A stretch of DNA of 44,153 bases from Candidatus Woesebacteria bacterium GW2011_GWC1_42_9 (GCA_000995185.1 LCET01000001.1:169028-213180), one strand, 5' to 3'. Positions 4,671 through 20,919 are shown, numbered from the stretch's first letter. Numbers and translations: made by a program. Notes: generated by a model not told the origin, from the sequence alone.

Positions 4671-5713
4671 TGCGAGGAAATTTAGGTTTAGTTTTTGCGG
4701 TCGCAGTATTAACCGCGACAAGCGTCATTGTACTTCAGTCGATCGTCCCTTTTATTTTTCCGCAGTATTATTTTTATATAGCATTAGGAATTGTGATGTT
4801 TATAGTTTTCTCCTTTATTGATTTTAGCGTACTTTCCGCTTTTTCACCTCATCTTTATGTGGCCAGTATTGTATTTTTACTTCTTCCTTTTCTGGTAGGT
4901 CAAGTTACCAGGGGGGTCGTGAGATGGGTCGGGGTGGGAGAGCTTACGATCCAACCATCTGAAATCGTCCGTCCATTCCTTATCCTTTTTTATGCAGTTT
5001 ATCTCGCAAAAGAGGATAAAGTTAGACTAACTGCCGTAAGAACTGGAAAAGCGTTAATATTTCTGTTCATTCCCTTTATTTTAATTTTGCTTCAGCCGTC
5101 GCTTGGGGTGGCGGTTTTAACTCTGATTGGTTTTTTTGGAGTGTTCTTGTCCCTTAATTACGACAAAAAAATATTACCAGTGGGCATGCTGATTTTTATT
5201 ATTGCCCTCCCGGTTTTTTGGCTCGTGCTTGCGCCTTATCAAAAATTAAGAGTTATTACGTTAATAAACCCGATGGCGGACCCTTACGGTGCCGGTTATA
5301 ATAGTATTCAGTCGGTGATAACGATAGGAAGCGGGGGAGTGTGGGGGAAAGGATTAGGGAAAGGAGTTCAGACTCAGCTTGAGTTTCTCCCAGAGCGGCA
5401 TACAGACTTTATTTTTGCAAGCATTGCTGAAGAAATGGGCCTAGTTGGCGCTTTATTTGTTCTTTTAGTTAGTTTTTTTCTTTTATATCAAATTATTGTC
5501 CCGATCCAAAAGGGCGGTAATTATCTGGAGAGAGCATTCCTATCGGGAATATTTCTAACTCTATTTACGCAAGTGGCTGTGCATGTCGGGATGAATATGG
5601 GTTTGGCGCCAATTACTGGTTTGCCGCTCCCCTTGGTTTCCGCCGGTGGATCATCATATCTTGCGACGATGATTATGCTTGGAATAGTTGCCAGGGTGCG
5701 GGTTCTCGCGTAA
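4670..5713 (+). CDS. rodA: SEDS family peptidoglycan polymerase (RodA/FtsW), probably RodA
   Basis: Multi-TM; RW...IQPSE, GYNSIQS..IGSGG..GKG, LPERHTDFIF, PITGLPLPLVSAGGSS; ATG overlaps ileS TGA. Confidence 0.88.
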   Translation: MRGNLGLVFAVAVLTATSVIVLQSIVPFIFPQYYFYIALGIVMFIVFSFIDFSVLSAFSPHLYVASIVFLLLPFLVGQVTRGVVRWVGVGELTIQPSEIVRPFLILFYAVYLAKEDKVRLTAVRTGKALIFLFIPFILILLQPSLGVAVLTLIGFFGVFLSLNYDKKILPVGMLIFIIALPVFWLVLAPYQKLRVITLINPMADPYGAGYNSIQSVITIGSGGVWGKGLGKGVQTQLEFLPERHTDFIFASIAEEMGLVGALFVLLVSFFLLYQIIVPIQKGGNYLERAFLSGIFLTLFTQVAVHVGMNMGLAPITGLPLPLVSAGGSSYLATMIMLGIVARVRVLA

Positions 5714-10746: not shown

Positions 10747-10747
10747 G

Positions 10748-10818
10748 AGCCCTCTGTCAGAATCGAACTGACATCGGCGGTTTACGATACCACTGCTTTG
10801 CCACTAAGCTAAGAGGGC
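10748..10818 (-). tRNA. tRNA-Thr(CGT)
   Basis: Acceptor GCCCTCT/AGAGGGC, anticodon arm GTGGT-ATCGTAA-ACCGC, T arm GTCAG-TTCGATT-CTGAC; TGcTATACT promoter at 10851-10843. Confidence 0.92.
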
Positions 10819-11362: not shown

Positions 11363-11377
11363 TTTCCTTTGGAAAAG

Positions 11378-11421
11378 TGGTATACTGGAGCAGTCCCCCA
11401 GACATTGGGGGAAGTTTTTTT
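11378..11421 (+). promoter_or_regulatory. Extended -10 plus hairpin/T-tract before typA
   Basis: TGgTATACT 11378-11386; TCCCCCA-gacat-TGGGGGA 11394-11412; T7 11415-11421. Confidence 0.55.
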
Positions 11422-13281
11422 ATGAATATGAGTGAACAAAAAGATAAAAGGAATATTGCCGTTATTGCCCATGTAGACCATGGCAAGACAACACTAGTGG
11501 ATGCTCTTTTGAAACAAACTCATACTTTTCGTGAAAATGAGGAGGAGATGGGGAAGGAGCAAATTATGGATTCAGGCGACCTTGAACGTGAACGAGGGAT
11601 TACTATTTTGGCCAAAAATTGTGCAGTTGATTATAAAAATACGAAGATAAATATTATTGATACGCCTGGTCACGCGGATTTTTCAGGTGAAGTTGAACGA
11701 ACATTAGGAATGGCAGAAGGAGCACTTTTGATCGTGGATGCTCAAGAAGGACCGATGCCGCAAACAAGGTTTGTATTACGGCGTGCTTTGGAACTGGGCT
11801 TAAAGATTATTGTCGTGATTAATAAAATTGATAAAAGGTTTGCTCGCGTTCCTGAATCGGTATCTAAATTGGAAAGCCTTTTTTTAGAATTAGCAAAGGA
11901 TGAGTCTCAGCTTGATTTTCCGATAATTTATGCCATCGGGAGGCGCGGGGTTGCGTTTAATACTTTACCTGAAGATATGGAACAAAAGGGAGATATTACT
12001 CCACTTCTTGATTTGATCATAAGTCATGTACCGGCACCTAAAAATTCTCCTCTGGGGACTTTTAAAATGGTGGTTACTACGCTTGATTATGAGCCTCATC
12101 TTGGACAGATCGCTATCGGTAAAATTTTTAGAGGCAAGCTAGTTAAGGGCGAGAAAGTAATTGTCACTAACTCGCCTGGGAAAATATATAAAGTAGAGAA
12201 GGTTATGGTCCCTCGGGGCCTGGGAAGAGTTGAAGTCGAAGGCGCTGAGGCAGGCGAAATAGTGGCCATAGCCGGCGTTGATAATCTTAAAATTGGCCAA
12301 ACAATTTCTGATCCTAGTGATACGACCCCGCTTCCGGAAATCGCAGTTTCACCACCCACTTTGCATATCACCCTTGGTCCAAATACTTCCCCCCTGGCAG
12401 GCCAGGAAGGAGAGTATTCCACCGGCAGGCAAATTGAGGAAAGACTTAGAAAAGAAATAGAAACAAATCTAAGTTTAAAGGTCGAGGCACTTGGGAACGG
12501 TAAGTTTAAGGTGTCTGGAAGAGGTGAGCTTCATCTGGCGATCTTACTGGAGACTCTTCGGCGTGAAGGCTATGAAATGGAAGTCGGTAAGCCCGAAGTT
12601 ATTCTCAAAAAAATTGATGGAGTACTAAAAGAGCCGGTGGAAGAGGTAAACATTATTGTCCCTCAGGAGTTTGTCGGAGTTATAAATCAAGAAATGGGTA
12701 AACGGTATGCAAAAATTCTTAAAATGGAGGCGATTTCTGAGGAAGAAACAGAATTTATCTATCAATTCCCGACTCGCGCTATGATCGGCCTCCGCGGCCT
12801 ACTTTTAAATCTCACCAAGGGGACAGTTGTCATGAGTTCGCAAGTAATTGCCTATGAAAAAATTGGTCGGGAACTACCAAAATTAAGGCGTGGAGCATTG
12901 ATTTCGCAATCCTCAGGATCTGCTTTGGCTTATAGCCTTGAAACCGCCCAAAATCGAGGGATCACTTTTATCGATCCGGGAGAAACTGTCTATGAAGGGA
13001 TGATCATCGGCCAAAATGCGAAAAACGAAGATATTGAAATAAATGTATGCAAGGGTAAAAAACTGACAAACATGAGGAGTAAATCTTCGGACGGGATTAT
13101 CCAGTTGACCCCAGCCACGAAGCTTTCTTTGGAACAATCGCTTGATTTTCTGGAACGTGATGAGCTATTGGAGATTACCCCAAAGAGTTTGCGCTTAAGA
13201 AAAAAACATCTTACTGTTTTGGCCCGAAGGCGAATAAACCGCGCCGCCCGCTCGAGCCAAGCCACCCAAGCGATGATTTAA
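11422..13281 (+). CDS. typA: Translational GTPase TypA/BipA
   Basis: RNIAVIAHVDHGKTTLVD, ERERGITILAK, DTPGHADF, GRGELHL, KKLTNMRS, LEITPKSLRLRK; start revised to ATG 11422. Confidence 0.98.
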   Translation: MNMSEQKDKRNIAVIAHVDHGKTTLVDALLKQTHTFRENEEEMGKEQIMDSGDLERERGITILAKNCAVDYKNTKINIIDTPGHADFSGEVERTLGMAEGALLIVDAQEGPMPQTRFVLRRALELGLKIIVVINKIDKRFARVPESVSKLESLFLELAKDESQLDFPIIYAIGRRGVAFNTLPEDMEQKGDITPLLDLIISHVPAPKNSPLGTFKMVVTTLDYEPHLGQIAIGKIFRGKLVKGEKVIVTNSPGKIYKVEKVMVPRGLGRVEVEGAEAGEIVAIAGVDNLKIGQTISDPSDTTPLPEIAVSPPTLHITLGPNTSPLAGQEGEYSTGRQIEERLRKEIETNLSLKVEALGNGKFKVSGRGELHLAILLETLRREGYEMEVGKPEVILKKIDGVLKEPVEEVNIIVPQEFVGVINQEMGKRYAKILKMEAISEEETEFIYQFPTRAMIGLRGLLLNLTKGTVVMSSQVIAYEKIGRELPKLRRGALISQSSGSALAYSLETAQNRGITFIDPGETVYEGMIIGQNAKNEDIEINVCKGKKLTNMRSKSSDGIIQLTPATKLSLEQSLDFLERDELLEITPKSLRLRKKHLTVLARRRINRAARSSQATQAMI

Positions 13282-13512
13282 GAGCTGGTCACCGTACTTT
13301 GCTCGAACCTATTTAGCCAGGATGAGTATATCAAAGGATATCTACTCGACCCCGATTTGCCACTTATTACCAAAGTAAAAATCGGTCTTTACTACTACAT
13401 CACCAGTGACCTTATTTTACAACTAAACGTATTTAAAGACTATCTTGAGAAAATAAATCCATTTCTATTTTTAGAAGTATTTGGTAAACGATGCAAGGAT
13501 CAAAAATATTAA
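13282..13512 (+). repeat. Cassette end B, copy 1 (start-less 76-codon open frame)
   Basis: Direct repeat of 15605-15844; translates ELVTVLCSNLFSQDEYIKGYLLDPDLPLITKVKIGLYYYITSDLILQLNVFKDYLEKINPFLFLEVFGKRCKDQKY*. Confidence 0.9.
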
Positions 13513-13571
13513 TGAGTGATTAATAATTTCAAGGTTCATTTGCCTTTGGCAAAGTTAACATACCCAAAAAT

Positions 13572-14522
13572 TTAAACTATTTCAACACTTTTATTCCAAT
13601 ATTCATCAAACGCTTTCTTTATTTCATCATAGTTCTCAGTCAGGTTTATTTCTGACCTTTGACCTGACGAAATAGCATTAACGTTTGGTACATTTCTCGC
13701 ATAATCCACATCATCAATAATCCAACGATCGTGAGCATCTCGAACTAGTTTGCTGTCAATGGTAGCCCAGGAAACATCGATATTCTTATTAGCCATTTCT
13801 TGCTTAAATCGTGTAAGATCTTTCCGAGCAGTGGTATTAAGATTGCCTTCGCCCAGGTCTAGGGATATTATGCGTATTTGCTTAATTTTACTAGCATCAG
13901 CAATAGCCCAAAGCCACTCAAGAGCCTCTTTTTGAAAGTGCTTATCAAGCCAGTAGATGCCACCTTCGCATTCACCCAGTACCTTTTTTATCCACATGAT
14001 ATTAGAGAAAGGACGATTAGGATCTATAAATATATTTCTTGGTGTTTGAGGAGAGTCGGGAGAAATCAAAATACGTACAATCCGTGTTTTTTTATTGTAA
14101 TTAATAATTTCCGCATAATTCATGAAGTCTAGCAAATGCGTAAGTGGTTCTCGCGAATCATAAAACCAAAATCCCGTTGTTTTTAGAACCGTTAAAACTT
14201 GCTCAACTGTTATATTGGCAACTCCCCAAAGATATTGTTGTATGGCAATAGTTGGAGGGTAAAATAGAAGCATTTGTTTGAGCAACTCTTTTTCCCCACC
14301 ATCACAACGGATAAAGAGTGACTCAAAAATAGCTCTACCCAATTCAGACAATTCACCAGTTGCCGAATCACTGAAAACACCTAGTTCTTCCCAAAAAAGG
14401 TAGTCGTCTCCTAGATCAAGATGGCTAATCGCCCCAGTTTCGCCAGCAGTTCTTATGTAGGGTAGTACCTTTTTCCAATTAGTTTTTGGGAGAAGTATCG
14501 TCTTTTCTGTTGTTTGACTCAT
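13572..14522 (-). CDS. Hypothetical protein: probable wHTH-like N-terminus plus PLD-fold (HDR-type) nuclease-like domain
   Basis: ELSELGRAI wHTH-like wing; C-terminal 'IYWLDKHF...IRIIS...AHDRWIIDD' pattern of PLD-like domains. Confidence 0.6.
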   Translation of the reverse strand: MSQTTEKTILLPKTNWKKVLPYIRTAGETGAISHLDLGDDYLFWEELGVFSDSATGELSELGRAIFESLFIRCDGGEKELLKQMLLFYPPTIAIQQYLWGVANITVEQVLTVLKTTGFWFYDSREPLTHLLDFMNYAEIINYNKKTRIVRILISPDSPQTPRNIFIDPNRPFSNIMWIKKVLGECEGGIYWLDKHFQKEALEWLWAIADASKIKQIRIISLDLGEGNLNTTARKDLTRFKQEMANKNIDVSWATIDSKLVRDAHDRWIIDDVDYARNVPNVNAISSGQRSEINLTENYDEIKKAFDEYWNKSVEIV

Positions 14523-15282
14523 GTTTTTTGATTTCCACTTCTACTGCTTTTTCCAATGCAGACATTTGGTCCCTGAACGTACCCATATTGAAAGCAAATT
14601 GGAGGTTCTTAGGGTACGATAGAGCGATACCACTAGGGAATTCAACTGTAATCATCTCTGGTCGCACATTTGTAATTGGAGCATAACTACCTTTAGTTTC
14701 GTTTTTTAGAGGATTGGCATGAGTTTGTACAGGATCATTATCAATACCAACTTCATCATCCTTAACTAAAATTTCACTTGAGACAATTCCATTCTGATAA
14801 ACACCTGCGTATTCAATGGACTTGCGAAAGATGTTTGCCACGTTATCTGCAACCTTCTGACCAATTTTATGGCTACGCACAAGAATACTGCTTAGTGCAG
14901 TAGGCACTGCATGGCCGGCAAACTCATTAAGAAGCGTCTTGTATAGTTTTGGAGCTGTAACAGCTAACTGTTTAGCTGTTTGGAGATCATTATCGTCAAT
15001 CGGGTGTGCAAAACTGAGGGAGAGGTCAGTATTTCGATAGGCATTGCCTTCTCGACCAAGTAAGCCAAAATGTACAAGAGAGGCAACTTTCATTCCAACT
15101 GGGCCAGTTACTTTTTCATAACCCATTTCCTTAACAGCGTTATCCCTACTAAACGCTGACTTACTAAACGCTGTTTGAAGCTTAGCGCTATAGTTAATAG
15201 CATCTTCAAGCGTAATTGATGGATAAGATGCACTACGTTCTTTTGTTTTCACTTGTTTAGTGGTTGGTTGTTCTTCTGTCAT
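14479..15282 (-). CDS. Hypothetical protein, probable winged-helix DNA-binding protein
   Basis: 'SYPSITLEDAI...MGY...VASLVHFGLL...YRNTDLS...PKLYKTL' pattern; overlaps the downstream gene by 44 bp. Confidence 0.6.
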   Translation of the reverse strand: MTEEQPTTKQVKTKERSASYPSITLEDAINYSAKLQTAFSKSAFSRDNAVKEMGYEKVTGPVGMKVASLVHFGLLGREGNAYRNTDLSLSFAHPIDDNDLQTAKQLAVTAPKLYKTLLNEFAGHAVPTALSSILVRSHKIGQKVADNVANIFRKSIEYAGVYQNGIVSSEILVKDDEVGIDNDPVQTHANPLKNETKGSYAPITNVRPEMITVEFPSGIALSYPKNLQFAFNMGTFRDQMSALEKAVEVEIKKHESNNRKDDTSPKN

Positions 15283-15314
15283 AGATTTACTTTCTTTAAT
15301 AACTTTATTTAATC

Positions 15315-15344
15315 ATTTTACATCAGGAAAATACCACTTGTCAA
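15315..15344 (-). promoter_or_regulatory. Promoter for the 267 aa/316 aa operon
   Basis: Minus strand TTGACA (15344-15339), 18 bp, TAAAAT (15320-15315). Confidence 0.65.
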
Positions 15345-15465
15345 CACTGTTCTATGTGTTGTTCTTTGGCTAGTCTTAACATATCCTGGGTAAAAGATAA
15401 TAATTCGGTATAGTTGTGATAATAATGATATAGAACACTGGTAAATTAATAATTTTGTATTAACT

Positions 15466-15608
15466 CTAGTACGTAGGTCCGACTCCGGTTATCGGTATGA
15501 TTTTTTCCAGGCTAAATATAAGACGTTAAAAATAGTGGCTAGAACTCGGGATAATGTTGATTTATTGAGGGAAATTGGAGAAAACACAAAACCATTTCGC
15601 TATTGAGC
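15466..15608. repeat. Cassette end A, copy 1 (non-coding)
   Basis: Aligns with 19800-19941 through blocks CTAGTAC, AGGTyCGAyTCCsGTTA, TCCAGGCTAA, GGCTmGAACTCGGGAkAATsTTGATTT, ACAAAAC, CGmTATkGAGC. Confidence 0.85.
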
Positions 15609-15844
15609 TGGTAACCGTAATTGGCTCGGACCTATTTAGCCAGGACGAGTATATCAAACAGTATCTACTCGACCCCGATTCGTCACTTATTACTAAAATA
15701 AAAATAGGTCTTCGTTACTACATTACAACTCAGCCTGAGTTAATTTTACAGCTTACCGTTTTCAAAGGCTACCTGGAGAAAATCAATCCGTTTCTATTTA
15801 TGGAGGTATTCGGTAAAGATCGCGAAGATAGAAAAATATGGTAA
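15575..15844 (+). CDS. Small conserved junction protein spanning the A1|B2 junction (end B copy 2 = 15605-15844)
   Basis: Roughly three-quarters amino-acid identity to the B1 frame, ~16 synonymous differences and an in-frame 6 bp indel; start uncertain (TTG 15575 or ATT 15602). Confidence 0.65.
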   Translation: MEKTQNHFAIELVTVIGSDLFSQDEYIKQYLLDPDSSLITKIKIGLRYYITTQPELILQLTVFKGYLEKINPFLFMEVFGKDREDRKIW

Positions 15845-16027
15845 TATTGGGGTACCGAATGATCCCTGTAGTGAAAGTATCTTACTATTAGGGAACTGAC
15901 GACACAAATTCATTTGTGATCCGTACATGAATGATTTTTTGTGTTTAGGGGGAAAGTCTGCGATCAGGAGAGACAAAAACAGGCATATACGAGCCTTTAT
16001 ATGCTGCAGATGAGAGGTATTTGTACC

Positions 16028-16085
16028 CGCGAGGCGGGTTGGAAGGAGTTTGGGGAGTAAATCCGCCGCGCCAAAAATTTTTTTT
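16028..16085 (+). terminator. GC-rich hairpin upstream of the restriction gene
   Basis: GGCGGGTT (16033-16040) pairs with AATCCGCC (16060-16067); followed by A5 then a T-run. Confidence 0.45.
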
Positions 16086-16115
16086 AAAACGTAGTAAAAT
16101 CAACTAGAGGTTAAT

Positions 16116-16952
16116 ATGGCAAAAAAGAATCAATCTAAAAGATTAACTAATCAACATAAAGAATCCCAAGGTGCAGTTGGTATATTTGGAGACGAGGCAA
16201 AGTTCCACGATACAACAGTTAGTAAAATTTCACATCTTGTAATTGAGCAACTTGAAAATGAATTTCCTAAATTAACTTTTAGGCATAGGACAGCAATAAA
16301 AAAGAATGAGATAAACGAAGCATTAAAGAAAATTGATCCAGAATTAGGGCAAACCCTTTTTGTATCAAATTCAAGCATTATCCCAGACGGCGGAATAATT
16401 GAAGTAAAAGATGATAACGATATTTGGAGAATATTGCTTGTAACAGAAGCTAAGCATCAAGGAAAAGATATTGAAAATATCCAAAAAGGAAATTTAGTTG
16501 GCAAAAATAACAATCAAGACTTGATGGCAGCTGGTAACGCAATAGAAAGATCGCATAAAAATATATCAGAAATCGCCAACTTTATGCTACATGAATCCCA
16601 TTTCCCTTATATCTTATTTTTGGAAGGATCAAATTTTCTTACTGAAACTATTTCAATTAAGAGACCAGATGGAAGGGTGGTTACTCTTGATTATAACTCA
16701 GGCATGTTAAATAGATTAGATAGATTGACTTCTGCAAATTATGGAATGCCAATTAACACAAATTTATGTAAAAATAAATTTGTTAAACACAAAGATAAAA
16801 CCATTATGCTTCAGGCAGCTTCGATATATACGCAAGGTAATGGTGAAAAATGGGATGTAAGAGAAATGCTTGACATTATGATTGAGATTTCAAAAACCTC
16901 TCTTCAGGTATTAGGAAGTGAGATATTTAACCAGATAACTAAAGATAAATAA
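16116..16952 (+). CDS. ecoRIR: EcoRI-family type II restriction endonuclease (predicted GAATTC)
   Basis: Full-length close similarity to R.EcoRI: PDGG...EAK catalytic motif, LMAAGNAIERSHKN recognition arm, NRLDRLT. Confidence 0.96.
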   Translation: MAKKNQSKRLTNQHKESQGAVGIFGDEAKFHDTTVSKISHLVIEQLENEFPKLTFRHRTAIKKNEINEALKKIDPELGQTLFVSNSSIIPDGGIIEVKDDNDIWRILLVTEAKHQGKDIENIQKGNLVGKNNNQDLMAAGNAIERSHKNISEIANFMLHESHFPYILFLEGSNFLTETISIKRPDGRVVTLDYNSGMLNRLDRLTSANYGMPINTNLCKNKFVKHKDKTIMLQAASIYTQGNGEKWDVREMLDIMIEISKTSLQVLGSEIFNQITKDK

Positions 16953-16968
16953 CCAAAACCATTTGATT

Positions 16969-17988
16969 ATGGCAAGAAAAGCGACAAATAAATTACTGCA
17001 AAAAGCTAAAGAATCAAAGAGCGATGAATTTTACACTCAGCTTTCTGATATTGAAAATGAATTAAAGCATTATAAAGATAGATTTAAAGATAAAGTAGTT
17101 TATTGTAATTGCGATGACCCTAGAACTAGCAACTTTTATGAGTATTTTTCCTCAAATTTCAAAGAGTTGAGGCTAAAAAAAATCATAGCCTCTTGCTACA
17201 GAAAGCAAGAAAGAGATTTATTTAATAATAAAGAATTTGAAAGTGGGTTTTTTTATGAATATTCAGGTACTCAGGGCGAAAAAATAAAACCAAGCGCTAA
17301 TGATATAATCCACTTTAAAGGAGACGGGGATTTTCGTAGTTCAGAAAGTATAGAATTATTGAAACAGGCGGATATTATTGTAACCAATCCACCATTTTCA
17401 TTATTTAGGAAATATGTAGATCAATTAGTTAAATACGATAAGAAATTTTTAATAATTGGCAACATTAACGCTATTACCTATAAAGAAATTTTTAAACTAA
17501 TTAAGGGAAATAAGGCGTGGCTAGGAATAAATTTAGGTAGAGGTATCTCAGGTTTTATTGTGCCAGAACATTATGAACTTTACGGAACAGAGGCACGTAT
17601 TGATAGCCTTGGAAATAGAATAGTTTCCCCAAATAATTGTTTATGGTTAACTAATTTAGATACTTCTAAAAGACATGAAAACATTACTCTTACAAAAAAA
17701 TATTTTGGAAATGAAATCGAGTATCCATATTATGATAACTACGATGGAATTAATGTAAATAGAACAAAAGATATTCCTCTGGATTACGAAGGTGTTTTGG
17801 GCGTACCCATAACTTTTTTACATAAATATAACCCAGAACAATTCGAAATAATTAAATTCAGAAAAGGAAATGATGAAAAGGATTTGTCAATAAACGGTAA
17901 ATGTCCGTATTTTAGAATTTTAATCAAGAAAAGAATACAAAAAAATAGAACTGACGACACAAAAATATTAGTTAGTGATTTGTCTTAG
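16969..17988 (+). CDS. ecoRIM: EcoRI-family adenine-specific DNA methyltransferase
   Basis: MARKATNKLL.KAK.SKSDEFYTQ, YCNCDDP, GDGDFRSSES, TNPPFSLF; start revised to ATG 16969. Confidence 0.96.
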   Translation: MARKATNKLLQKAKESKSDEFYTQLSDIENELKHYKDRFKDKVVYCNCDDPRTSNFYEYFSSNFKELRLKKIIASCYRKQERDLFNNKEFESGFFYEYSGTQGEKIKPSANDIIHFKGDGDFRSSESIELLKQADIIVTNPPFSLFRKYVDQLVKYDKKFLIIGNINAITYKEIFKLIKGNKAWLGINLGRGISGFIVPEHYELYGTEARIDSLGNRIVSPNNCLWLTNLDTSKRHENITLTKKYFGNEIEYPYYDNYDGINVNRTKDIPLDYEGVLGVPITFLHKYNPEQFEIIKFRKGNDEKDLSINGKCPYFRILIKKRIQKNRTDDTKILVSDLS

Positions 17989-18026
17989 CCATAGGGGTCG
18001 CCTTTTTAGAGAAATAGTTAAGATTC

Positions 18027-18518
18027 TTATTCTCCCAACTCTCCAGTAGTTCTAATTGGATCACCTATCAAAATCGAGTGAAACTCATCCTCTGGCAAAC
18101 GTTCTCTTTTAAATACTTGCCATCCTAAGTCGTAAACCGTCTTCATATTCCAAATGTGATGTTTGTGTAATGTAACTAGATCGTGTAAATAAATGGCTCC
18201 AGGAGCATTTTCGCTCTCTATTATTCTAAACTTATTGCCGTATTCATTAATTGGATACTTTTCTCGGTAATACTTAATGCTTCTTTTCCGTGCCAGTTCA
18301 TCTCTAAAATAAGAACTACCAAAATATGCACCAATGATAGCTGCTAAACCAATACTAATTTTGTTGAAGTTGTCAGCTATTGCATTTAGATTTTCTAAGG
18401 GGAGAAAAAAATGGGCAAGTACAAAGATTAAGAAGGATATAATCAGGAAAGCCTTGTAGGTTTGGACCTGTTTTCTGAATTTTTTCCAATTTTTCTTAAA
18501 CCTTTTCTTGTTTAACAT
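18027..18518 (-). CDS. Hypothetical membrane protein (2 TM plus small beta domain)
   Basis: Two hydrophobic helices, then 'IYLHD...KHHIWNMKTVYDLGW.......EF.SI.IGDPI'. Confidence 0.7.
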   Translation of the reverse strand: MLNKKRFKKNWKKFRKQVQTYKAFLIISFLIFVLAHFFLPLENLNAIADNFNKISIGLAAIIGAYFGSSYFRDELARKRSIKYYREKYPINEYGNKFRIIESENAPGAIYLHDLVTLHKHHIWNMKTVYDLGWQVFKRERLPEDEFHSILIGDPIRTTGELGE

Positions 18519-18526
18519 ATTTATTT

Positions 18527-19762
18527 TTATGGAAAATGAAACAGCAATACAGTAAGTAGCAATTCTCTTTTCGTGTCGACATTCAGGTGAAATCTGAATC
18601 TTTGTATTGTTCCTTCTGCTTCTTCACTCTCTAAATTTATAAAGTTACTATGCTTTTTTGCAGCTTCTCTTGCCGTAGTTATTACATTAGTGAAGTCAGC
18701 ATTTCTTACGAAGACCATAATTGAGGCTTTAGAATCTCTCCAAGTAAGATATTTGAGTATTTGGTCGATAGTTTCAATAAACTTCTTTTCCCCTGTCCAA
18801 AATTTGCACTCGGCAATAAAAGTGTTATTTCCGTCATGTCTAAGTAAAATATCTGTTTTACCCGATTTATTGAACGTTTCACCCGTAGCTGATCCTTCAA
18901 AGTTGGTTTCTAGAATTATTAGAAAATGATCTCGCAGTCCTTCTTCATCTTTGTTGGTATAAACAGCCGGCATTCTTTCAATCTGTTTTCCCATATCGTG
19001 GATAACACGAAGTATTGCGTTATATGTTTCAGTATCTAGAGTTGGATCTGGGGTTCCAGAATTGCTTGGAGATGGTCTCGGAATAATTTTCTTTTTAGCT
19101 TTCGGAGCAGGAATAGAAAATGTGCTCGGAACGTTATCTCTTTTTTTGACGGGGACACCCAACTGGTCCAAGAAACTATTATTAGATTTCAAGCTTTCTT
19201 TTCTTTCCTTAAGCAACATCCTAGCATTCTCTGATAAGCTTGCATTGTAATTATTTACTTCGTTTGCAAGATTTCCAAGCTGTTTTTGTAAATTGGAAAG
19301 ATTTTGGTCTGAGTCTCTTTTTGTTTTTTCGGCATCATTGGTGAAGTTAATAATCTCAAAACATAAAAACTCTCCATCATCATTAATTTCATGATCAAGC
19401 TCGATGGTCCATAGAAGTGATGTACTTGGTTTGAAGTTTATTACTTCAATCTCGCCGTTGAAGGGTAAGTGGTATTTAATAGCTTGCCTTGGATAAGATT
19501 TATTGTCAGTAATAAAAAAACTTTCTCGAGGATGTCTGTCAGCAGGAATCATTTTTTCTTCATGGGTTATAAACTTGTTTTCGATATCTAGTATTGGAGG
19601 ATCTATAGAAAACTCAGAAACTAAATGTTCAACATATTCATTCTCGTTTATATTCAGAATGTAGCCTGTCTCTTCTGAGTGAATTTTGTTTTTGAGTTTC
19701 TCCTTTTGGGAGCGCAAAACATCTCCAAAATACCCTTTAGTGAAGGGAGTAATAGTACTCAT
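18527..19762 (-). CDS. Hypothetical protein with coiled coil and C-terminal PD-(D/E)XK nuclease-like domain
   Basis: EEGLRDHFL...GETFNKSGKTDILL...FIAECKFW...DQILKYL. Confidence 0.72.
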   Translation of the reverse strand: MSTITPFTKGYFGDVLRSQKEKLKNKIHSEETGYILNINENEYVEHLVSEFSIDPPILDIENKFITHEEKMIPADRHPRESFFITDNKSYPRQAIKYHLPFNGEIEVINFKPSTSLLWTIELDHEINDDGEFLCFEIINFTNDAEKTKRDSDQNLSNLQKQLGNLANEVNNYNASLSENARMLLKERKESLKSNNSFLDQLGVPVKKRDNVPSTFSIPAPKAKKKIIPRPSPSNSGTPDPTLDTETYNAILRVIHDMGKQIERMPAVYTNKDEEGLRDHFLIILETNFEGSATGETFNKSGKTDILLRHDGNNTFIAECKFWTGEKKFIETIDQILKYLTWRDSKASIMVFVRNADFTNVITTAREAAKKHSNFINLESEEAEGTIQRFRFHLNVDTKRELLLTVLLFHFP

Positions 19763-19799
19763 AATTGGATCTGATATTAGCAGAAATCTACATTGACTG

Positions 19800-19941
19800 C
19801 TAGTACAGGTTCGATTCCCGTTACCAGTGTTGCGACTCTCCAGGCTAACGCAATTTTTGCAAAATATAAGGCTCGAACTCGGGAGAATCTTGATTTTAGG
19901 GGGAGATTTTTAACTACTACAAAACTAGTCCGATATGGAGC
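19800..19941. repeat. Cassette end A, copy 2 (abuts tRNA-Gly 3' end)
   Basis: Homologous to 15466-15608; holds a perfect 14 bp inverted copy (19808-19821) of tRNA-Gly 19947-19960. Confidence 0.85.
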
Positions 19942-20009
19942 GGGATACGGGAATCGAACCCGTGTCTCTACCTTGGGAAGGTGGCGTACTACCATTGTAC
20001 TAATCCCGC
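19936..20009 (-). tRNA. tRNA-Gly(CCC)
   Basis: Acceptor GCGGGAT/ATCCCGC, loop TTCCCAA, T arm ACGGG-TTCGATT-CCCGT, ends TCCA; one C-A mismatch in anticodon stem; TGtTATAAT at 20030-20022. Confidence 0.95.
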
Positions 20010-20032
20010 TTAGGCAGGTAAATTATAACATC

Positions 20033-20638
20033 TTAAGGTAATACAAACACATTCCCGGGATGAATAAGATCGGGGCTCGTCAGTTTGTTTGCCCTGGCAA
20101 TTTCTACCCATTTATATCCATTCCCATATTGAGCTACCGCTATATCCCAAAGCGTGTCCCCTTTTACAACAGTGTATGAGGAGGAAGTTGTGAGTCCTCC
20201 TTTTGTCGTTGTGGGAGCAATTTCTGGTGTCGCTGAGGGCTGTGGTGTAGCTACGGCCACTGCTGTCGCCTCTGGGGTGGCTACCTCTGCCACTTCGGAG
20301 GTCCTAGCAGGGACGTTTGGAACAACGAGCGTCTGTCCTTCAGCAATATCGTCGGCGCTTGTTAGATTATTTTCTTCCACGATATCCACCCAGTTATATC
20401 CAGTTTTATAATACTTTTCGGAGATAGACCAAAGTGTTTCTCCGCGGACTACTGTGTGAGTAGCCGGAAGAGTTACTTCGTCACTAACTGAAACTCCTGA
20501 GGGAAGAGTGGTTCCAGAATCTAAATTGCGGAAGTAGTTAACTACTAAAACGCCAACTACAACGATAACAAAAATTCCCAAAATAGTGCTGATGCTCGAC
20601 TCGTTTAGTTTAAAGATCTTAAGTAATGATTTAAGCAA
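20033..20638 (-). CDS. Membrane-anchored protein with two LysM domains
   Basis: HTVVRGETLWSISEKYY and YTVVKGDTLWDIAVAQYG, Ala/Thr/Pro linker; SD AAGGAGGTGA. Confidence 0.93.
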   Translation of the reverse strand: MLKSLLKIFKLNESSISTILGIFVIVVVGVLVVNYFRNLDSGTTLPSGVSVSDEVTLPATHTVVRGETLWSISEKYYKTGYNWVDIVEENNLTSADDIAEGQTLVVPNVPARTSEVAEVATPEATAVAVATPQPSATPEIAPTTTKGGLTTSSSYTVVKGDTLWDIAVAQYGNGYKWVEIARANKLTSPDLIHPGNVFVLP

Positions 20639-20704: not shown

Positions 20705-20778
20705 GTAGTGATTTTGCCGATCTTTCCATCACTTTAATGGATTAAAGTATTGAGGGGATAAAGATGATTTTATATGGG

Positions 20779-20852
20779 CGAGGCTGAGGGGATTTGAACC
20801 CCTGATCTCTTCCGTGACAGGGAAGCGCTTTAAACCGCTAAGCTACAGCCCC
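20779..20852 (-). tRNA. tRNA-Asp(GTC), canonical
   Basis: Acceptor GGGGCTG/CAGCCTC, CTTCC-CTGTCAC-GGAAG, G73, C38. Confidence 0.96.
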
Positions 20853-20919
20853 AAAACACCTTATTGTACAATTTTTAGCCTAATTATTCCAGAATTTAAA
20901 AAAAAGGGGGGGTTGAGGT

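What the first reader, a model, noticed from the sequence alone, without database searches (positions are those of the whole stretch)
13282..19960. Integrase-less, tRNA-anchored tandem cassette array carrying defence genes
Seen: the island is two modules with the same two ends but unrelated cargo, in the order typA stop | B1(13282-13512) - wHTH-PLD + wHTH genes - A1(15466-15608) | B2(15605-15844) - EcoRI-type R-M + 2TM + nuclease - A2(19800-19941) | tRNA-Gly. All three junctions share GAGCnGG (taaGAGCtggtcacc, attGAGCtggtaacc, atgGAGCgggatacg). No integrase, transposase or replication gene is recognisable in either module. Inference: non-autonomous cassettes inserted at the extreme tRNA 3' end through a ~4 bp core by a trans-acting recombinase and stacked in tandem, functionally like an integron but with different sites. 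The predicted empty site joins 13285 to 19942. I do not recognise this architecture as a described family.
Basis: partly seen in the sequence, partly recalled or inferred. Interest (0 to 1): 0.92.

Follow-up and report, generated by a model that had tools for sequence, protein, structure and literature searches.

The report
Recombinase-less gene cassettes stacked at tRNA-Gly
Two small gene cassettes with no recombinase gene of their own sit one behind the other at the end of a glycine tRNA gene, and they belong to a widespread, apparently undescribed family that carries varied cargo between tiny groundwater bacteria.

Summary
The window holds typA | B1-cargo1-A1 | B2-cargo2-A2 | tRNA-Gly(ccc), and all three junctions fall at GAGC.

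The same ends flank other cargo at tRNA-Gly genes of three anticodons (ccc, tcc, gcc).
- In genome records, 37 of 39 loci that show a downstream tRNA have tRNA-Gly first.
- In metagenome contigs the figure is 42 of 43.
- Tandem arrays occur in 10 of 54 and 23 of 80 loci.

The ends are more than sites.
- B is a small gene (about 87-89 aa) under purifying selection, and its codons 11-12 hold the junction.
- B is followed by an unnamed structured RNA motif with 21 pairs, 11 of them covarying.

Cassette 1 occurs at 89% nucleotide identity in another organism. That organism's neighbouring LysM protein is only 34% identical, and it lacks cassette 2. So the cassettes move.

No recombinase lies inside the cassettes. 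Relics link them to large serine recombinases (LSRs) that target tRNA 3' ends.

No empty site and no circle junction was found. The acting enzyme and the roles of B and the RNA are inferred.

This is closest to decayed integrative elements (CIMEs) stacked by tandem accretion. I rate it a new variant of a known kind.

The parts
11377..13281 (+). typA/BipA GTPase gene. Its TAA stop directly abuts the first junction and forms the left chromosomal flank.
   Evidence: Pfam GTP_EFTU and BipA_C. The sequence reads taa|GAGC.
13282..13285 (.). Junction 1 core, GAGC.
13282..13512 (+). B1: a copy of the small B gene that lacks its start (76 codons plus stop). It is the left end of cassette 1.
   Evidence: dN/dS against B2 is 0.23.
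13572..15282 (-). Cargo 1: two overlapping genes (316 aa and 267 aa) of unknown function.
   Evidence: No Pfam family. Atlas places them in hypothetical-protein clusters. They are 93% and 88% identical in protein to the copies in contig L275.
15466..15604 (+). A1: right end of cassette 1 (A1 type). It supplies a promoter-like site, the ribosome-binding site and the first 10 codons of B2.
   Evidence: 83-95% identical copies in other genomes. Promoter-like site at 15526-15555, not above chance.
15605..15608 (.). Junction 2 core, GAGC (an internal, attP-like A|B joint).
15575..15844 (+). B2: complete small B gene (TTG start, 89 aa). The core lies at codons 11-12.
   Evidence: The AlphaFold2 (AF2) model is a four-helix protein with mean confidence score (pLDDT) 67.
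15853..15938 (+). Structured RNA motif, 5' part. It lacks the 3' strand of helix 1.
   Evidence: Covariance model R1 hit, E 1.6e-9. Alignment and pair counts.
15893..15917 (+). Direct repeat, copy 1, at the left edge of the nested restriction-modification (R-M) segment.
   Evidence: Repeat family D4: 84% identity to 17948-17972.
16116..17988 (+). EcoRI-type restriction endonuclease and methylase, nested inside the RNA motif.
   Evidence: Pfam and PADLOC.
17941..18015 (+). Structured RNA motif, 3' part (helix 3 and the 3' strand of helix 1). It includes direct repeat copy 2 (17948-17972).
   Evidence: It matches the 3' halves of the motif in L151, L155 and L196.
18027..19762 (-). Cargo 2, continued: a 163-aa protein of unknown function and a 411-aa homologue of PADLOC candidate PDC-S54.
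19800..19935 (+). A2: right end of cassette 2 (A2 type).
   Evidence: 86% identical copy next to tRNA-Gly(tcc) in G045. Same end type in L176, L185 and L186.
19938..19941 (.). Junction 3 core, GAGC, which is the antisense of the last bases of the tRNA.
19936..20009 (-). tRNA-Gly(ccc): the anchor and target.
   Evidence: ARAGORN. Rfam tRNA, 65 bits.

Best explanation
The island is a tandem array of two members of a family of small, recombinase-less integrative cassettes. Units in genome records have a median length of about 1.8 kb. The cassettes target the extreme 3' end of tRNA-Gly genes in Microgenomatia (Patescibacteria).

Each cassette is bounded as follows:
- On the left: the core GAGC, the small B gene and (usually) a roughly 85-nt structured RNA.
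- On the right: one of several 50-140-nt end types (A1, A2, C and others).

Inferred mechanism. A cassette circularises so that its right end joins its own B. This joint completes the B gene and is what the internal A1|B2 junction looks like. A site-specific recombinase supplied in trans then crosses this joint with the GAGC at the tRNA-Gly 3' end. The first 30 nt or so of B mimic the tRNA 3' end, so every integrated cassette offers a new target-like site, and arrays grow by accretion.

The best candidate for the enzyme is a large serine recombinase (LSR) of the lineage that in these bacteria inserts at tRNA 3' ends. The cassettes would then be descendants of LSR-bearing elements that lost the enzyme gene.

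B and the RNA are kept by selection. They probably act in recombination control or in expression of the cargo, but their roles are unknown.

Shown: the anatomy, family distribution, target specificity, modularity, selection on B and on the RNA structure, and horizontal movement of cassette 1. Inferred: the circular intermediate, the crossover point, the LSR as the enzyme, and any function for B or the RNA.
For: Sharp common boundary. All 59 listed B copies begin at GAGC (57) or AAGC (2), after unrelated left flanks.

Modularity. Each right-end type (A1, A2, C, C2, hairpin type, '..attaccgtatg', LSR type) is found both against tRNA-Gly and against an internal B. The A1 type abuts ccc, tcc and gcc tRNA-Gly genes.

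Target specificity:
- 37 of 39 genome loci and 42 of 43 metagenome loci that show any tRNA downstream of the last B show a minus-strand tRNA-Gly first.
- The distribution is patchy: 22 of 139 genomes of the order at E<=1e-3.

Mobility. Cassette 1 is 89.3% identical over 1757 nt in contig L275 (proteins 93% and 88%). There it also lies at a tRNA-Gly(ccc) with a LysM gene alongside, but that LysM protein is only 34% identical to the window's, and cassette 2 is absent.

No recombinase inside:
- No LSR or tyrosine-recombinase hit lies between B and the tRNA in the 54 genome loci, except the G037 pseudogene.
- LSR hits occur in 3 of 80 metagenome loci.
- No recombinase family appears among the 25 commonest cargo families of 145 cargo ORFs.

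Link to LSRs:
- In G037 a B...tRNA-Gly(tcc) unit ends in a truncated LSR gene (Pfam Recombinase, E 7e-11) that runs up to the core.
- In G423 an LSR C-terminal relic runs in frame into B, giving one 164-aa open frame.
- In L163 the last 21 nt of that LSR-type end abut a B.
- Intact LSRs of this kind sit against tRNA-Gly(ccc) in G327 and G226.
- LSRs occur in 92 of 139 genomes of the order.
- In 9 of 12 intact LSR genes examined, the ORF runs 40-185 nt into a convergent tRNA.
- A 4-7-nt shared core fits serine recombinases better than tRNA-targeting tyrosine integrases (my own knowledge).

B is a gene. It shows in-frame indels and 43 distinct sequences were aligned. dN/dS is 0.23 for B1 against B2 and has a median of 0.38 over 146 pairs. 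At internal junctions it has a ribosome-binding site and a TTG start.

The RNA motif is 95.5% paired, against 28-52% when the pairing partners are slid, and 11 of its 21 pairs show compensatory changes.
Against: - No empty site and no circle junction was seen. Only assembled contigs could be laid.
- The window's genome has a single LSR. It is 31% identical to the G037 fragment and sits at tRNA-Asn, not tRNA-Gly.
- The two genomes with an intact LSR at tRNA-Gly have no B.
- No intact LSR was found joined to a B in the 139 genomes of the order, 50 genome loci or 80 metagenome loci.
- The A1 profile and blastx found no significant likeness between the A ends and LSR genes or their 3' ends. Descent of A from an LSR gene is therefore unproven.
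- The sequences left of the core differ completely between right-end types. That is odd if one enzyme must read both half-sites.
- In L158 and L167 the first 12-13 nt of B equal the resident tRNA end, so the crossover may not be fixed at GAGC.
- The LSR mini-elements have their own architecture, with roughly 90-nt inverted repeats, that I did not reconcile with the cassettes.
Confidence: 0.6

Rival explanations
1. Cassette turnover happens by homologous recombination, with no dedicated recombinase. These bacteria take up DNA. The conserved backbone (B plus RNA motif on one side, right end plus tRNA-Gly on the other) serves as homology arms, so incoming arrays replace, add or delete cargo.
For: - No recombinase lies in or near almost all cassettes.
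- The backbone segments are long enough: B plus motif is about 320 nt and A plus tRNA about 200 nt, at 75-95% identity between genomes.
- In L275 the A1 end is truncated and followed by about 150 nt of other sequence rather than a clean joint.
Against: - It does not explain the base-precise GAGC boundary after unrelated left flanks.
- It does not explain seeding at three different tRNA-Gly genes, which are only about 75% alike.
- It does not explain right-end types with unrelated sequence sharing one junction point.
- It does not explain the LSR relics that end exactly at the core.
Confidence: 0.2
2. The cassettes exploit a host housekeeping recombinase or some other unlinked enzyme (for example a Xer-type tyrosine recombinase) rather than an LSR. 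This is what Xer-exploiting integrative elements (IMEX) do at the chromosome-dimer resolution site dif.
For: - Cassettes occur in genomes where the LSR fragment query found nothing. Family f3 scored 0 of 3 genomes although G038 carries a cassette.
- The window's genome has four tyrosine recombinase genes elsewhere.
- Tandem stacking of integrase-less elements is typical of IMEX (my own knowledge).
Against: - No dif-like site was identified. This was judged by eye only and not tested.
- The target is a tRNA end, which is the documented habit of the LSRs in these genomes.
- LSR relics abut the core.
Confidence: 0.12
3. The array is an immobile fossil. Local duplication of a B-A unit next to tRNA-Gly was followed by unrelated insertions, and the likeness to other genomes reflects vertical descent.
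For: - B1 has lost its start.
- No autonomous partner is present in this genome.
- No variant lacking a cassette was seen in four laid runs.
Against: - Cassette 1 is 89% identical in a host whose flanking LysM protein is 34% identical.
- The same ends occur at three tRNA-Gly genes and next to many different left flanks.
- The distribution is patchy: 22 of 139 genomes.
Confidence: 0.05

Closest known systems
CIMEs (cis-mobilizable elements) and tandem accretion of integrative elements, e.g. ICESt1/ICESt3-related islands of Streptococcus thermophilus
   Same: These are elements that kept attL and attR but lost their integration genes. They stack in tandem at the 3' end of a target gene by repeated site-specific integration. 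The definition was read in passages of PMC5704250.
   Different: - Here the units are far smaller, mostly carrying 0-2 ORFs of 100 aa or more.
- They are abundant as a family in their own right.
- They keep a selected small gene that spans the att core, plus a structured RNA.
- The suspected enzyme is an LSR.
- No conjugative parent is known, and cis-mobilisation was not tested.
Tycheposons of Prochlorococcus
   Same: They are tRNA-targeted elements that insert next to the island tRNA and push older ones outward. They occur in tandem separated by partial tRNA copies, with degenerate remnants, and carry adaptive and defence cargo. A minority use large serine recombinases. Passages of bioRxiv 10.1101/2020.12.28.424599 were read; its supplements were not seen.
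   Different: [quoted passage not shown] Many also carry replication genes.
- The cassettes here have neither.
- The boundary here is a 4-7-nt core plus a tRNA-like coding sequence, not a long partial tRNA.
Integron gene cassettes
   Same: Integron cassettes are small, mostly one-gene, promoter-poor and recombinase-less. They stack in arrays at one platform and carry very diverse cargo.
   Different: - No IntI-type gene is adjacent.
- Cassette borders fall at a GAGC core beside a tRNA, not at folded attC sites.
- The structured motif lies inside the cassette, on the sense strand after B, and is not at the border.
Large-serine-recombinase integrative elements and phages, and recombinase genes split by integration (SSV1-type integrase of Sulfolobus viruses)
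   Same: - LSR sites share only a short core.
- In G423 and G037 the LSR reading frame continues across the core in the frame of B. Excision would therefore change the C-terminus of the enzyme, which recalls integrase genes that are partitioned by integration (my own knowledge).
   Different: - No intact LSR-B fusion was found.
- At A1|B joints B has its own start.
- SSV1 uses a tyrosine recombinase in archaea.

Membership tests
CIME / decayed integrative element in tandem accretion | Bounded by attL and attR sites that match the att sites of an integrative element | tested here: met
   The same core and the same end types recur at tRNA-Gly and at internal junctions.
CIME / decayed integrative element in tandem accretion | Lacks integration and transfer genes | tested here: met
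   No recombinase family in the window's cassettes. LSR hits in 3 of 80 metagenome loci.
CIME / decayed integrative element in tandem accretion | Derived by decay from an autonomous element with the same att sites | tested here: inconclusive
   LSR pseudogene in G037 and LSR relic fused to B in G423. However, no intact LSR+B element was found, and the A ends show no significant likeness to LSR genes.
CIME / decayed integrative element in tandem accretion | Mobilised by the recombinase of a related element | not testable with these tools
   Needs a recombination assay or raw reads.
Integron | IntI tyrosine recombinase gene with attI next to the array | tested here: not met
   No tyrosine recombinase lies within or beside the arrays in 54 loci. 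The window's flanks are typA and tRNA-Gly/LysM.
Integron | Cassettes separated by attC hairpin sites | tested here: not met
   Borders are GAGC cores between a right end and B. The only folded motif lies inside the cassette. No attC-specific detection program was run.
Tycheposon | Element-encoded site-specific integrase matched to its tRNA | tested here: not met
Tycheposon | Integration at a tRNA gene, with tandem copies at the end of the island nearest the tRNA | tested here: met
LSR-type integrative element | Encodes a large serine recombinase (Resolvase + Recombinase + zinc-ribbon domains) | tested here: not met
   Absent from the window's island. The genome's one LSR is at tRNA-Asn on another contig.
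IS / MITE-type transposon | Terminal inverted repeats and target-site duplication | tested here: not met
   The ends A and B are unrelated, and there are no long inverted repeats between them. The only one is a 17-nt T-arm-like match to the tRNA.
IMEX (Xer-exploiting integrative elements) | attP resembling the host dif site, with integration at dif | not tested
   The target is a tRNA 3' end. No dif model was available.

The most novel reading that the evidence does not exclude
tRNA-Gly genes of Microgenomatia serve as an integron-like gene-capture platform. Recombinase-less cassettes are moved by large serine recombinases whose own reading frame crosses the attachment core. Excision would then fuse the enzyme, or a ribosome-binding site in the right end, to the B module, and integration would cut it off: a built-in state switch. 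In this reading the small B protein and the conserved RNA form a portable control unit, for recombination directionality or cargo expression, that every cassette carries.
Probability: 0.22. Interest if true: 0.88.

Novelty: new variant of a known kind. Interest (0 to 1): 0.78.

Why it matters
Patescibacteria have tiny genomes, and few of their mobile elements have been described. My searches of 8.1 million PMC papers and 0.36 million bioRxiv preprints found no paper on such cassettes:
- 'Patescibacteria + serine recombinase + tRNA'
- 'candidate phyla radiation / integrative / tRNA-Gly'
- 'Patescibacteria + genomic island + integrase'

For these three searches I saw only the listings and the starts of abstracts.

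A family of one- or two-gene cassettes with a fixed docking site would explain how these reduced cells trade defence systems (R-M, Gabija-like GajB, PDC-S54), NUDIX hydrolases, transporters and other accessory genes. It also offers three concrete objects to test:
- a short att site at a tRNA end,
- a small protein whose gene spans that site,
- a new structured RNA with good covariation.

If an LSR proves to be the enzyme, the tRNA-Gly/B-start pair would be a compact natural landing pad of possible use for genome engineering.

Tried and rejected
- **Rfam.** No family matches the motif or the A and B ends (window 13000-20200 at E<=1; L022 6300-11300 at E<=5).
- **B protein.** No Pfam family at E<=0.01 (two B ORFs), no PADLOC family at E<=0.01 (B2 only) and no PHROG family for any of 43 members. 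The PDB profile search found nothing better than E 0.38. The Foldseek PDB search gave no match at E<=0.001. No longer protein contains B: 58 candidates, none scored, which the tool itself calls weak evidence. No relative was found in IMG/VR viral contigs: 102 pattern matches, none confirmed.
- **'A is the relic of an LSR 3' end'.** blastx of 19 A copies against 12 LSRs gave a best E of 0.15, while 357 of 380 shuffles also gave hits, the best at E 0.003. nhmmer with an A1 profile against 36 LSR loci found only an A copy in L205 (E 0.02). The idea is kept as speculation only.
- **Left end of the window genome's own LSR element.** I looked for it through a repeat of the tRNA-Asn end. Nothing convincing was found.
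- **Empty site.** None of the 28 typA loci of family relatives has any tRNA within 1.5 kb. The window genome's other two tRNA-Gly genes (tcc, gcc) carry no A or B.
- **Reads.** The four laid runs are Logan contigs. Joints 13487>15525 and 13506>15502 (X3) and 15631>13308 (X5) have short sides, or extra letters between them, at 90% likeness. I read them as other community members with B/A ends, not as excision. A part without cover there is no finding.
- **Complex prediction.** LSR residues 140-500 (L222) with B gave no answer, score 0.00. This is not evidence either way.
- **Promoter scan.** The number of sites found equals the number in shuffles (27 against 25.1). The A1 promoter-like site is only a lead.
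- **Integron reading.** Rejected, because the borders are not at the folded motif.
- **Paper supplements.** I did not request any. The tycheposon supplementary examples of tandem elements may bear on the comparison.

Full report
**What is in the window.**

tRNA-Gly(ccc) lies at 19936-20009 on the minus strand, so its 3' end faces the island. To its left the order is:
- typA, 11377-13281, ending in TAA
- GAGC
- B1, 13282-13512
- two genes on the minus strand, 13572-15282
- A1, 15466-15604
- GAGC
- B2, to 15844
- about 4 kb of cargo
- A2, 19800-19935
- (TG)GAGC, which is the tRNA end

B1 and B2 are 86% alike over 122 nt and 75% alike over 100 nt, with a 6-nt in-frame gap between the two stretches. 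In the whole 894-kb genome they are each other's only match (E 7.5e-54; next best 0.18).

A1 and A2 are only faintly alike: one 40-nt stretch at 82.5%. Each has close copies in other genomes, so they are two types of right end and not one repeat.

Cargo 2 consists of:
- an EcoRI-type restriction endonuclease and methylase,
- a 163-aa protein without a family,
- a homologue of the PADLOC candidate PDC-S54.

Cargo 1 is two genes of unknown function. The PLD label is only a weak Atlas lead at 0.76. No island ORF matches a recombinase, transposase or replication family.

**B is a gene, not a bare site.**

The reading frame that starts at GAG of the core is open for 76-79 codons in both copies. At the internal A1|B2 joint it is preceded by a stop, a GAGG box and a TTG, which gives an 89-aa protein with the core at codons 11-12. 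The same 12-residue leader is found at the internal joint of G010.

I aligned 43 distinct B sequences. They differ by conservative changes and in-frame indels. dN/dS is 0.23 for B1 against B2, and its median is 0.38 over 146 pairs, with 75% of pairs under 0.5.

AlphaFold2 with this alignment gives a four-helix protein with mean confidence score (pLDDT) 67. The core-encoded first 21 residues are unstructured. No fold or family match was found.

The first 30 nt or so of B resemble the antisense 3' end of tRNA-Gly (acceptor strand plus T arm), with six extra bases.

**A structured RNA follows B.**

A roughly 85-nt motif follows directly after the B stop in most cassettes. It also occurs 0.3-1 kb further in, after a TATACT-like box. 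I aligned 33 copies.

RNAalifold gives three helices with 21 pairs, 11 of which show changes on both sides. On the named structure:
- 95.5% of cells pair, against 28-52% when the partners are slid.
- 0 of 500 shuffles reach the observed covariation score.

G-U pairs place the fold on the strand of B. Rfam has no match.

A covariance model finds the motif once in the window's genome, at 15853-15938, and in 15 of 139 genomes of the order, many of which also carry a B cassette.

In the window the motif is split. Its 3' half lies at 17941-18015, beyond the R-M genes, and a 25-nt direct repeat (15893-15917 and 17948-17972, 84% identity) marks the edges of that nested insertion.

**The family.**

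A B profile finds relatives as follows:
- 22 of 139 genomes of the order at E<=1e-3, about eleven of them full-length.
- 50 loci in species-representative genomes whose records are titled Gottesman-, Woese-, Collier-, Roizman-, Levy-, Shapiro-, Blackburn-, Ames- and Daviesbacteria, WWE3 and others.
- 177 of 267 candidate stretches in metagenome contigs, of which I examined the best 80.

Target specificity. In 54 genome loci, 39 show some tRNA downstream of the last B, and in 37 of these the first is a minus-strand tRNA-Gly. The two exceptions are a tRNA-Thr(ggt) and a plus-strand tRNA-Gly, and 15 loci end before any tRNA. In the 80 metagenome loci the figures are 42 of 43, with 37 ending too early. 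The tRNA-Gly carries anticodon ccc, tcc or gcc.

Arrays. Ten of 54 and 23 of 80 loci hold two or more B copies, with up to four in L181.

Size. Units with both borders have a median of 1.84 kb and range from 0.54 to 7.6 kb. One 4-nt 'unit' is a double hit and was dropped. Of 111 units, 22 hold no ORF of 100 aa or more, 40 hold one and 27 hold two.

Cargo. It is very diverse: 89 Pfam families in 145 ORFs. These include DUF5677 with an HTH domain, Exo_endo_phos, T5orf172/MUG113, NUDIX, methyltransferases, MFS and UvrD. PADLOC matches mad2 (4 ORFs) and GajB (2 ORFs). Defence genes are therefore one part of the cargo, not the rule.

**Junctions.**

All 59 listed B copies start at GAGC (57) or AAGC (2), whatever lies to their left: a typA stop, a tRNA-Thr flank, other genes, or a right end.

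The right ends fall into several unrelated types:
- A1, ending '..ccatttcgctatt'
- A2, ending '..actagtccgatatg'
- a 50-nt C type
- a C2 type
- a hairpin type
- an '..attaccgtatg' type
- an LSR type

Each type is seen both against tRNA-Gly and against an internal B. A1 abuts ccc, tcc and gcc genes. This modularity is what a site-specific joint predicts.

The shared core is at least GAGC. Position 5 is T in most B copies and G in the tRNAs.

Two loci speak for a deeper or variable crossover, or for gene conversion. In L158 and L167 the first 12-13 nt of B equal the resident tRNA end.

**Mobility.**

Contig L275 carries B (83%), both cargo-1 genes (89.3% over 1757 nt; proteins 93% and 88%) and part of A1. 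About 150 nt of other sequence follows, then a tRNA-Gly(ccc) and a LysM gene, as in the window. That LysM protein is only 34% identical to the window's, and cassette 2 is missing.

A cassette that is much better conserved than its chromosomal neighbour, found at the same kind of site in a distant host, is the strongest evidence here that the units move as units.

The A1 end is 83-95% identical between genera and families, although it is non-coding apart from the last 30 nt or so, which code the first 10 codons of B. By comparison, the typA C-terminus is 59-72% identical in protein within the family.

**Which enzyme?**

No recombinase sits in the cassettes. LSR queries hit 3 of 80 metagenome loci, and never inside a complete unit other than the G037 source contig. 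The window genome's tyrosine recombinases hit nothing between a B and its tRNA in 54 loci.

Three relics tie the family to large serine recombinases:
- In G037 a 6.5-kb B...tRNA-Gly(tcc) unit ends in a truncated LSR gene whose 3' end runs to the core.
- In G423 an 85-residue LSR C-terminal relic continues in frame into B as one 164-aa open frame.
- In L163 the last 21 nt of the same LSR-type end abut a B.

The frame of the G037 and L163 ends is also that of B. I read this directly from the sequences.

LSRs are common here. They occur in 92 of 139 genomes of the order. In 9 of 12 intact genes examined, the ORF runs 40-185 nt into a convergent tRNA gene (Asn, Glu, Val, Lys, Pro, Leu, Trp).

The G037 end belongs to a class of roughly 1.8-kb LSR units. 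These carry an inverted copy of their own last 90 nt or so upstream of the gene. The G037 end used as query hit 45 of 401 sampled genomes of the class at E<=0.01, some of them only over short stretches. Two intact examples sit against tRNA-Gly(ccc), in G327 and G226.

Evidence against the link:
- G327 and G226 have no B.
- The window's genome has only an LSR at tRNA-Asn.
- No intact LSR-B element turned up.
- The A ends show no significant likeness to LSR genes.

I therefore put the LSR at about 0.4 on its own terms. I treat 'trans-acting site-specific recombinase' as the safer statement.

**How arrays would grow.**

This part is inference. B's start mimics the tRNA-Gly end, so a left junction (flank|B) looks like a fresh target. 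The internal joints (right end|B) look like the joint of a circular cassette. Either feature would let later arrivals land beside earlier ones.

Cassette 2, which is absent from L275, lies next to the tRNA. This fits 'newest next to the tRNA', as in the tycheposon model, but one comparison does not settle the order.

**What was not found.**

- No typA|tRNA-Gly site: 0 of 28 typA loci of family relatives have a tRNA within 1.5 kb. Synteny differs. In G141 and G094, tRNA-Thr(cgt) lies left of B (directly in G141), whereas the window has typA between them.
- The laid runs are contigs of three or four groundwater samples. They confirm the outer junctions but show no cassette-less or circular form. 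Contigs drop rare variants, so this is silent rather than negative.

**Comparison with known systems.**

The anatomy fits the published definition of CIMEs and tandem accretion (passages of PMC5704250). It also fits the island-growth model of tycheposons (passages of the 2020 preprint).

It differs in four ways:
- The units are miniature and of integron-cassette size.
- They outnumber any autonomous form by far.
- Each keeps a selected small gene that spans the att core, plus a covarying RNA.
- The host group is Patescibacteria.

It is not an integron. There is no IntI, and the borders are not at a folded site. Three literature searches found no description of such cassettes (listings only).

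**Verdict.**

I rate this a new variant of a known kind, with interest 0.78.

Noticed in passing
window 15853-15938 and 17941-18015; L022 10751-10846(-) and 7401-7482(-); 31 further copies in alignment A5: An unnamed structured RNA motif of about 85 nt with three helices and 21 pairs, 11 of them covarying. It is preceded by a -10-like box, has no Rfam match, and was found in 15 of 139 genomes of the order.
   Followed up: yes
window 15893-15917 / 17948-17972, enclosing 15935-17947: The EcoRI-type R-M gene pair, with a G+C-rich roughly 170-nt leader (15935-16100), is nested inside the RNA motif between 25-nt direct repeats (84% identity). The methylase ORF ends inside the second repeat. This looks like a secondary insertion within cassette 2.
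   Followed up: partly
G000:C2:57357-58994 (L031 1471-3108) with tRNA-Asn(gtt) at L031 3067-3141: The genome's only large serine recombinase gene runs 41 nt into a convergent tRNA-Asn. The same habit is seen in 9 of 12 intact LSR genes examined in the order, at seven different tRNAs.
   Followed up: partly
L222 3029-3115(-) / 4753-4860(+); L223 to L228 likewise: LSR genes of the class are flanked by an inverted copy (about 90 nt, up to 96% identical) of their own 3' coding end, placed 260-360 nt upstream of the start. Homology between L222 and L223 continues beyond it, so it is not simply the end of the element. Its function is unexplained.
   Followed up: partly
L222 4860-4910 and L223 4853-4915: A tRNA-Gly fragment truncated at its 5' end lies between the LSR 3' end and the intact tRNA-Gly(ccc). 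The left flank of the upstream inverted copy in L222 is a B-start-like sequence in inverted orientation.
   Followed up: no
L046, L047, L044, L045, L015 (centres near 1500); L154 11269-11343: Shorter 'mini-B' variants (about 40-50 aa, without the middle helices) also occur upstream of tRNA-Gly. In L046 and L154 the B-type ORF lies upstream of tRNA-Thr(ggt) instead.
   Followed up: no
L059 7500-7800(-) (G110) and L229 (G423): Two right ends finish with GGAGCG(G) followed by sequence that is not a tRNA. These may be secondary sites, or arrays whose tRNA was lost.
   Followed up: no
window 10747-10818, 11377-13281; L058, L060: In G141 and G094, tRNA-Thr(cgt) lies to the left of B (directly in G141, about 0.7 kb away in G094). 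In the window, typA and two small ORFs lie between them, and typA orthologues of 28 relatives have no tRNA nearby. typA may have been brought here by a rearrangement.
   Followed up: partly
L067 6575-6649; L157 8308-8383: ARAGORN calls a tRNA with anticodon CTA (labelled Pyl) in two Patescibacteria loci. This may be an amber suppressor.
   Followed up: no
window 20775-20853(-) and 32751-32827(+): Two tRNA-Asp(gtc) genes of unusual length (79 and 77 nt) lie in the window.
   Followed up: no
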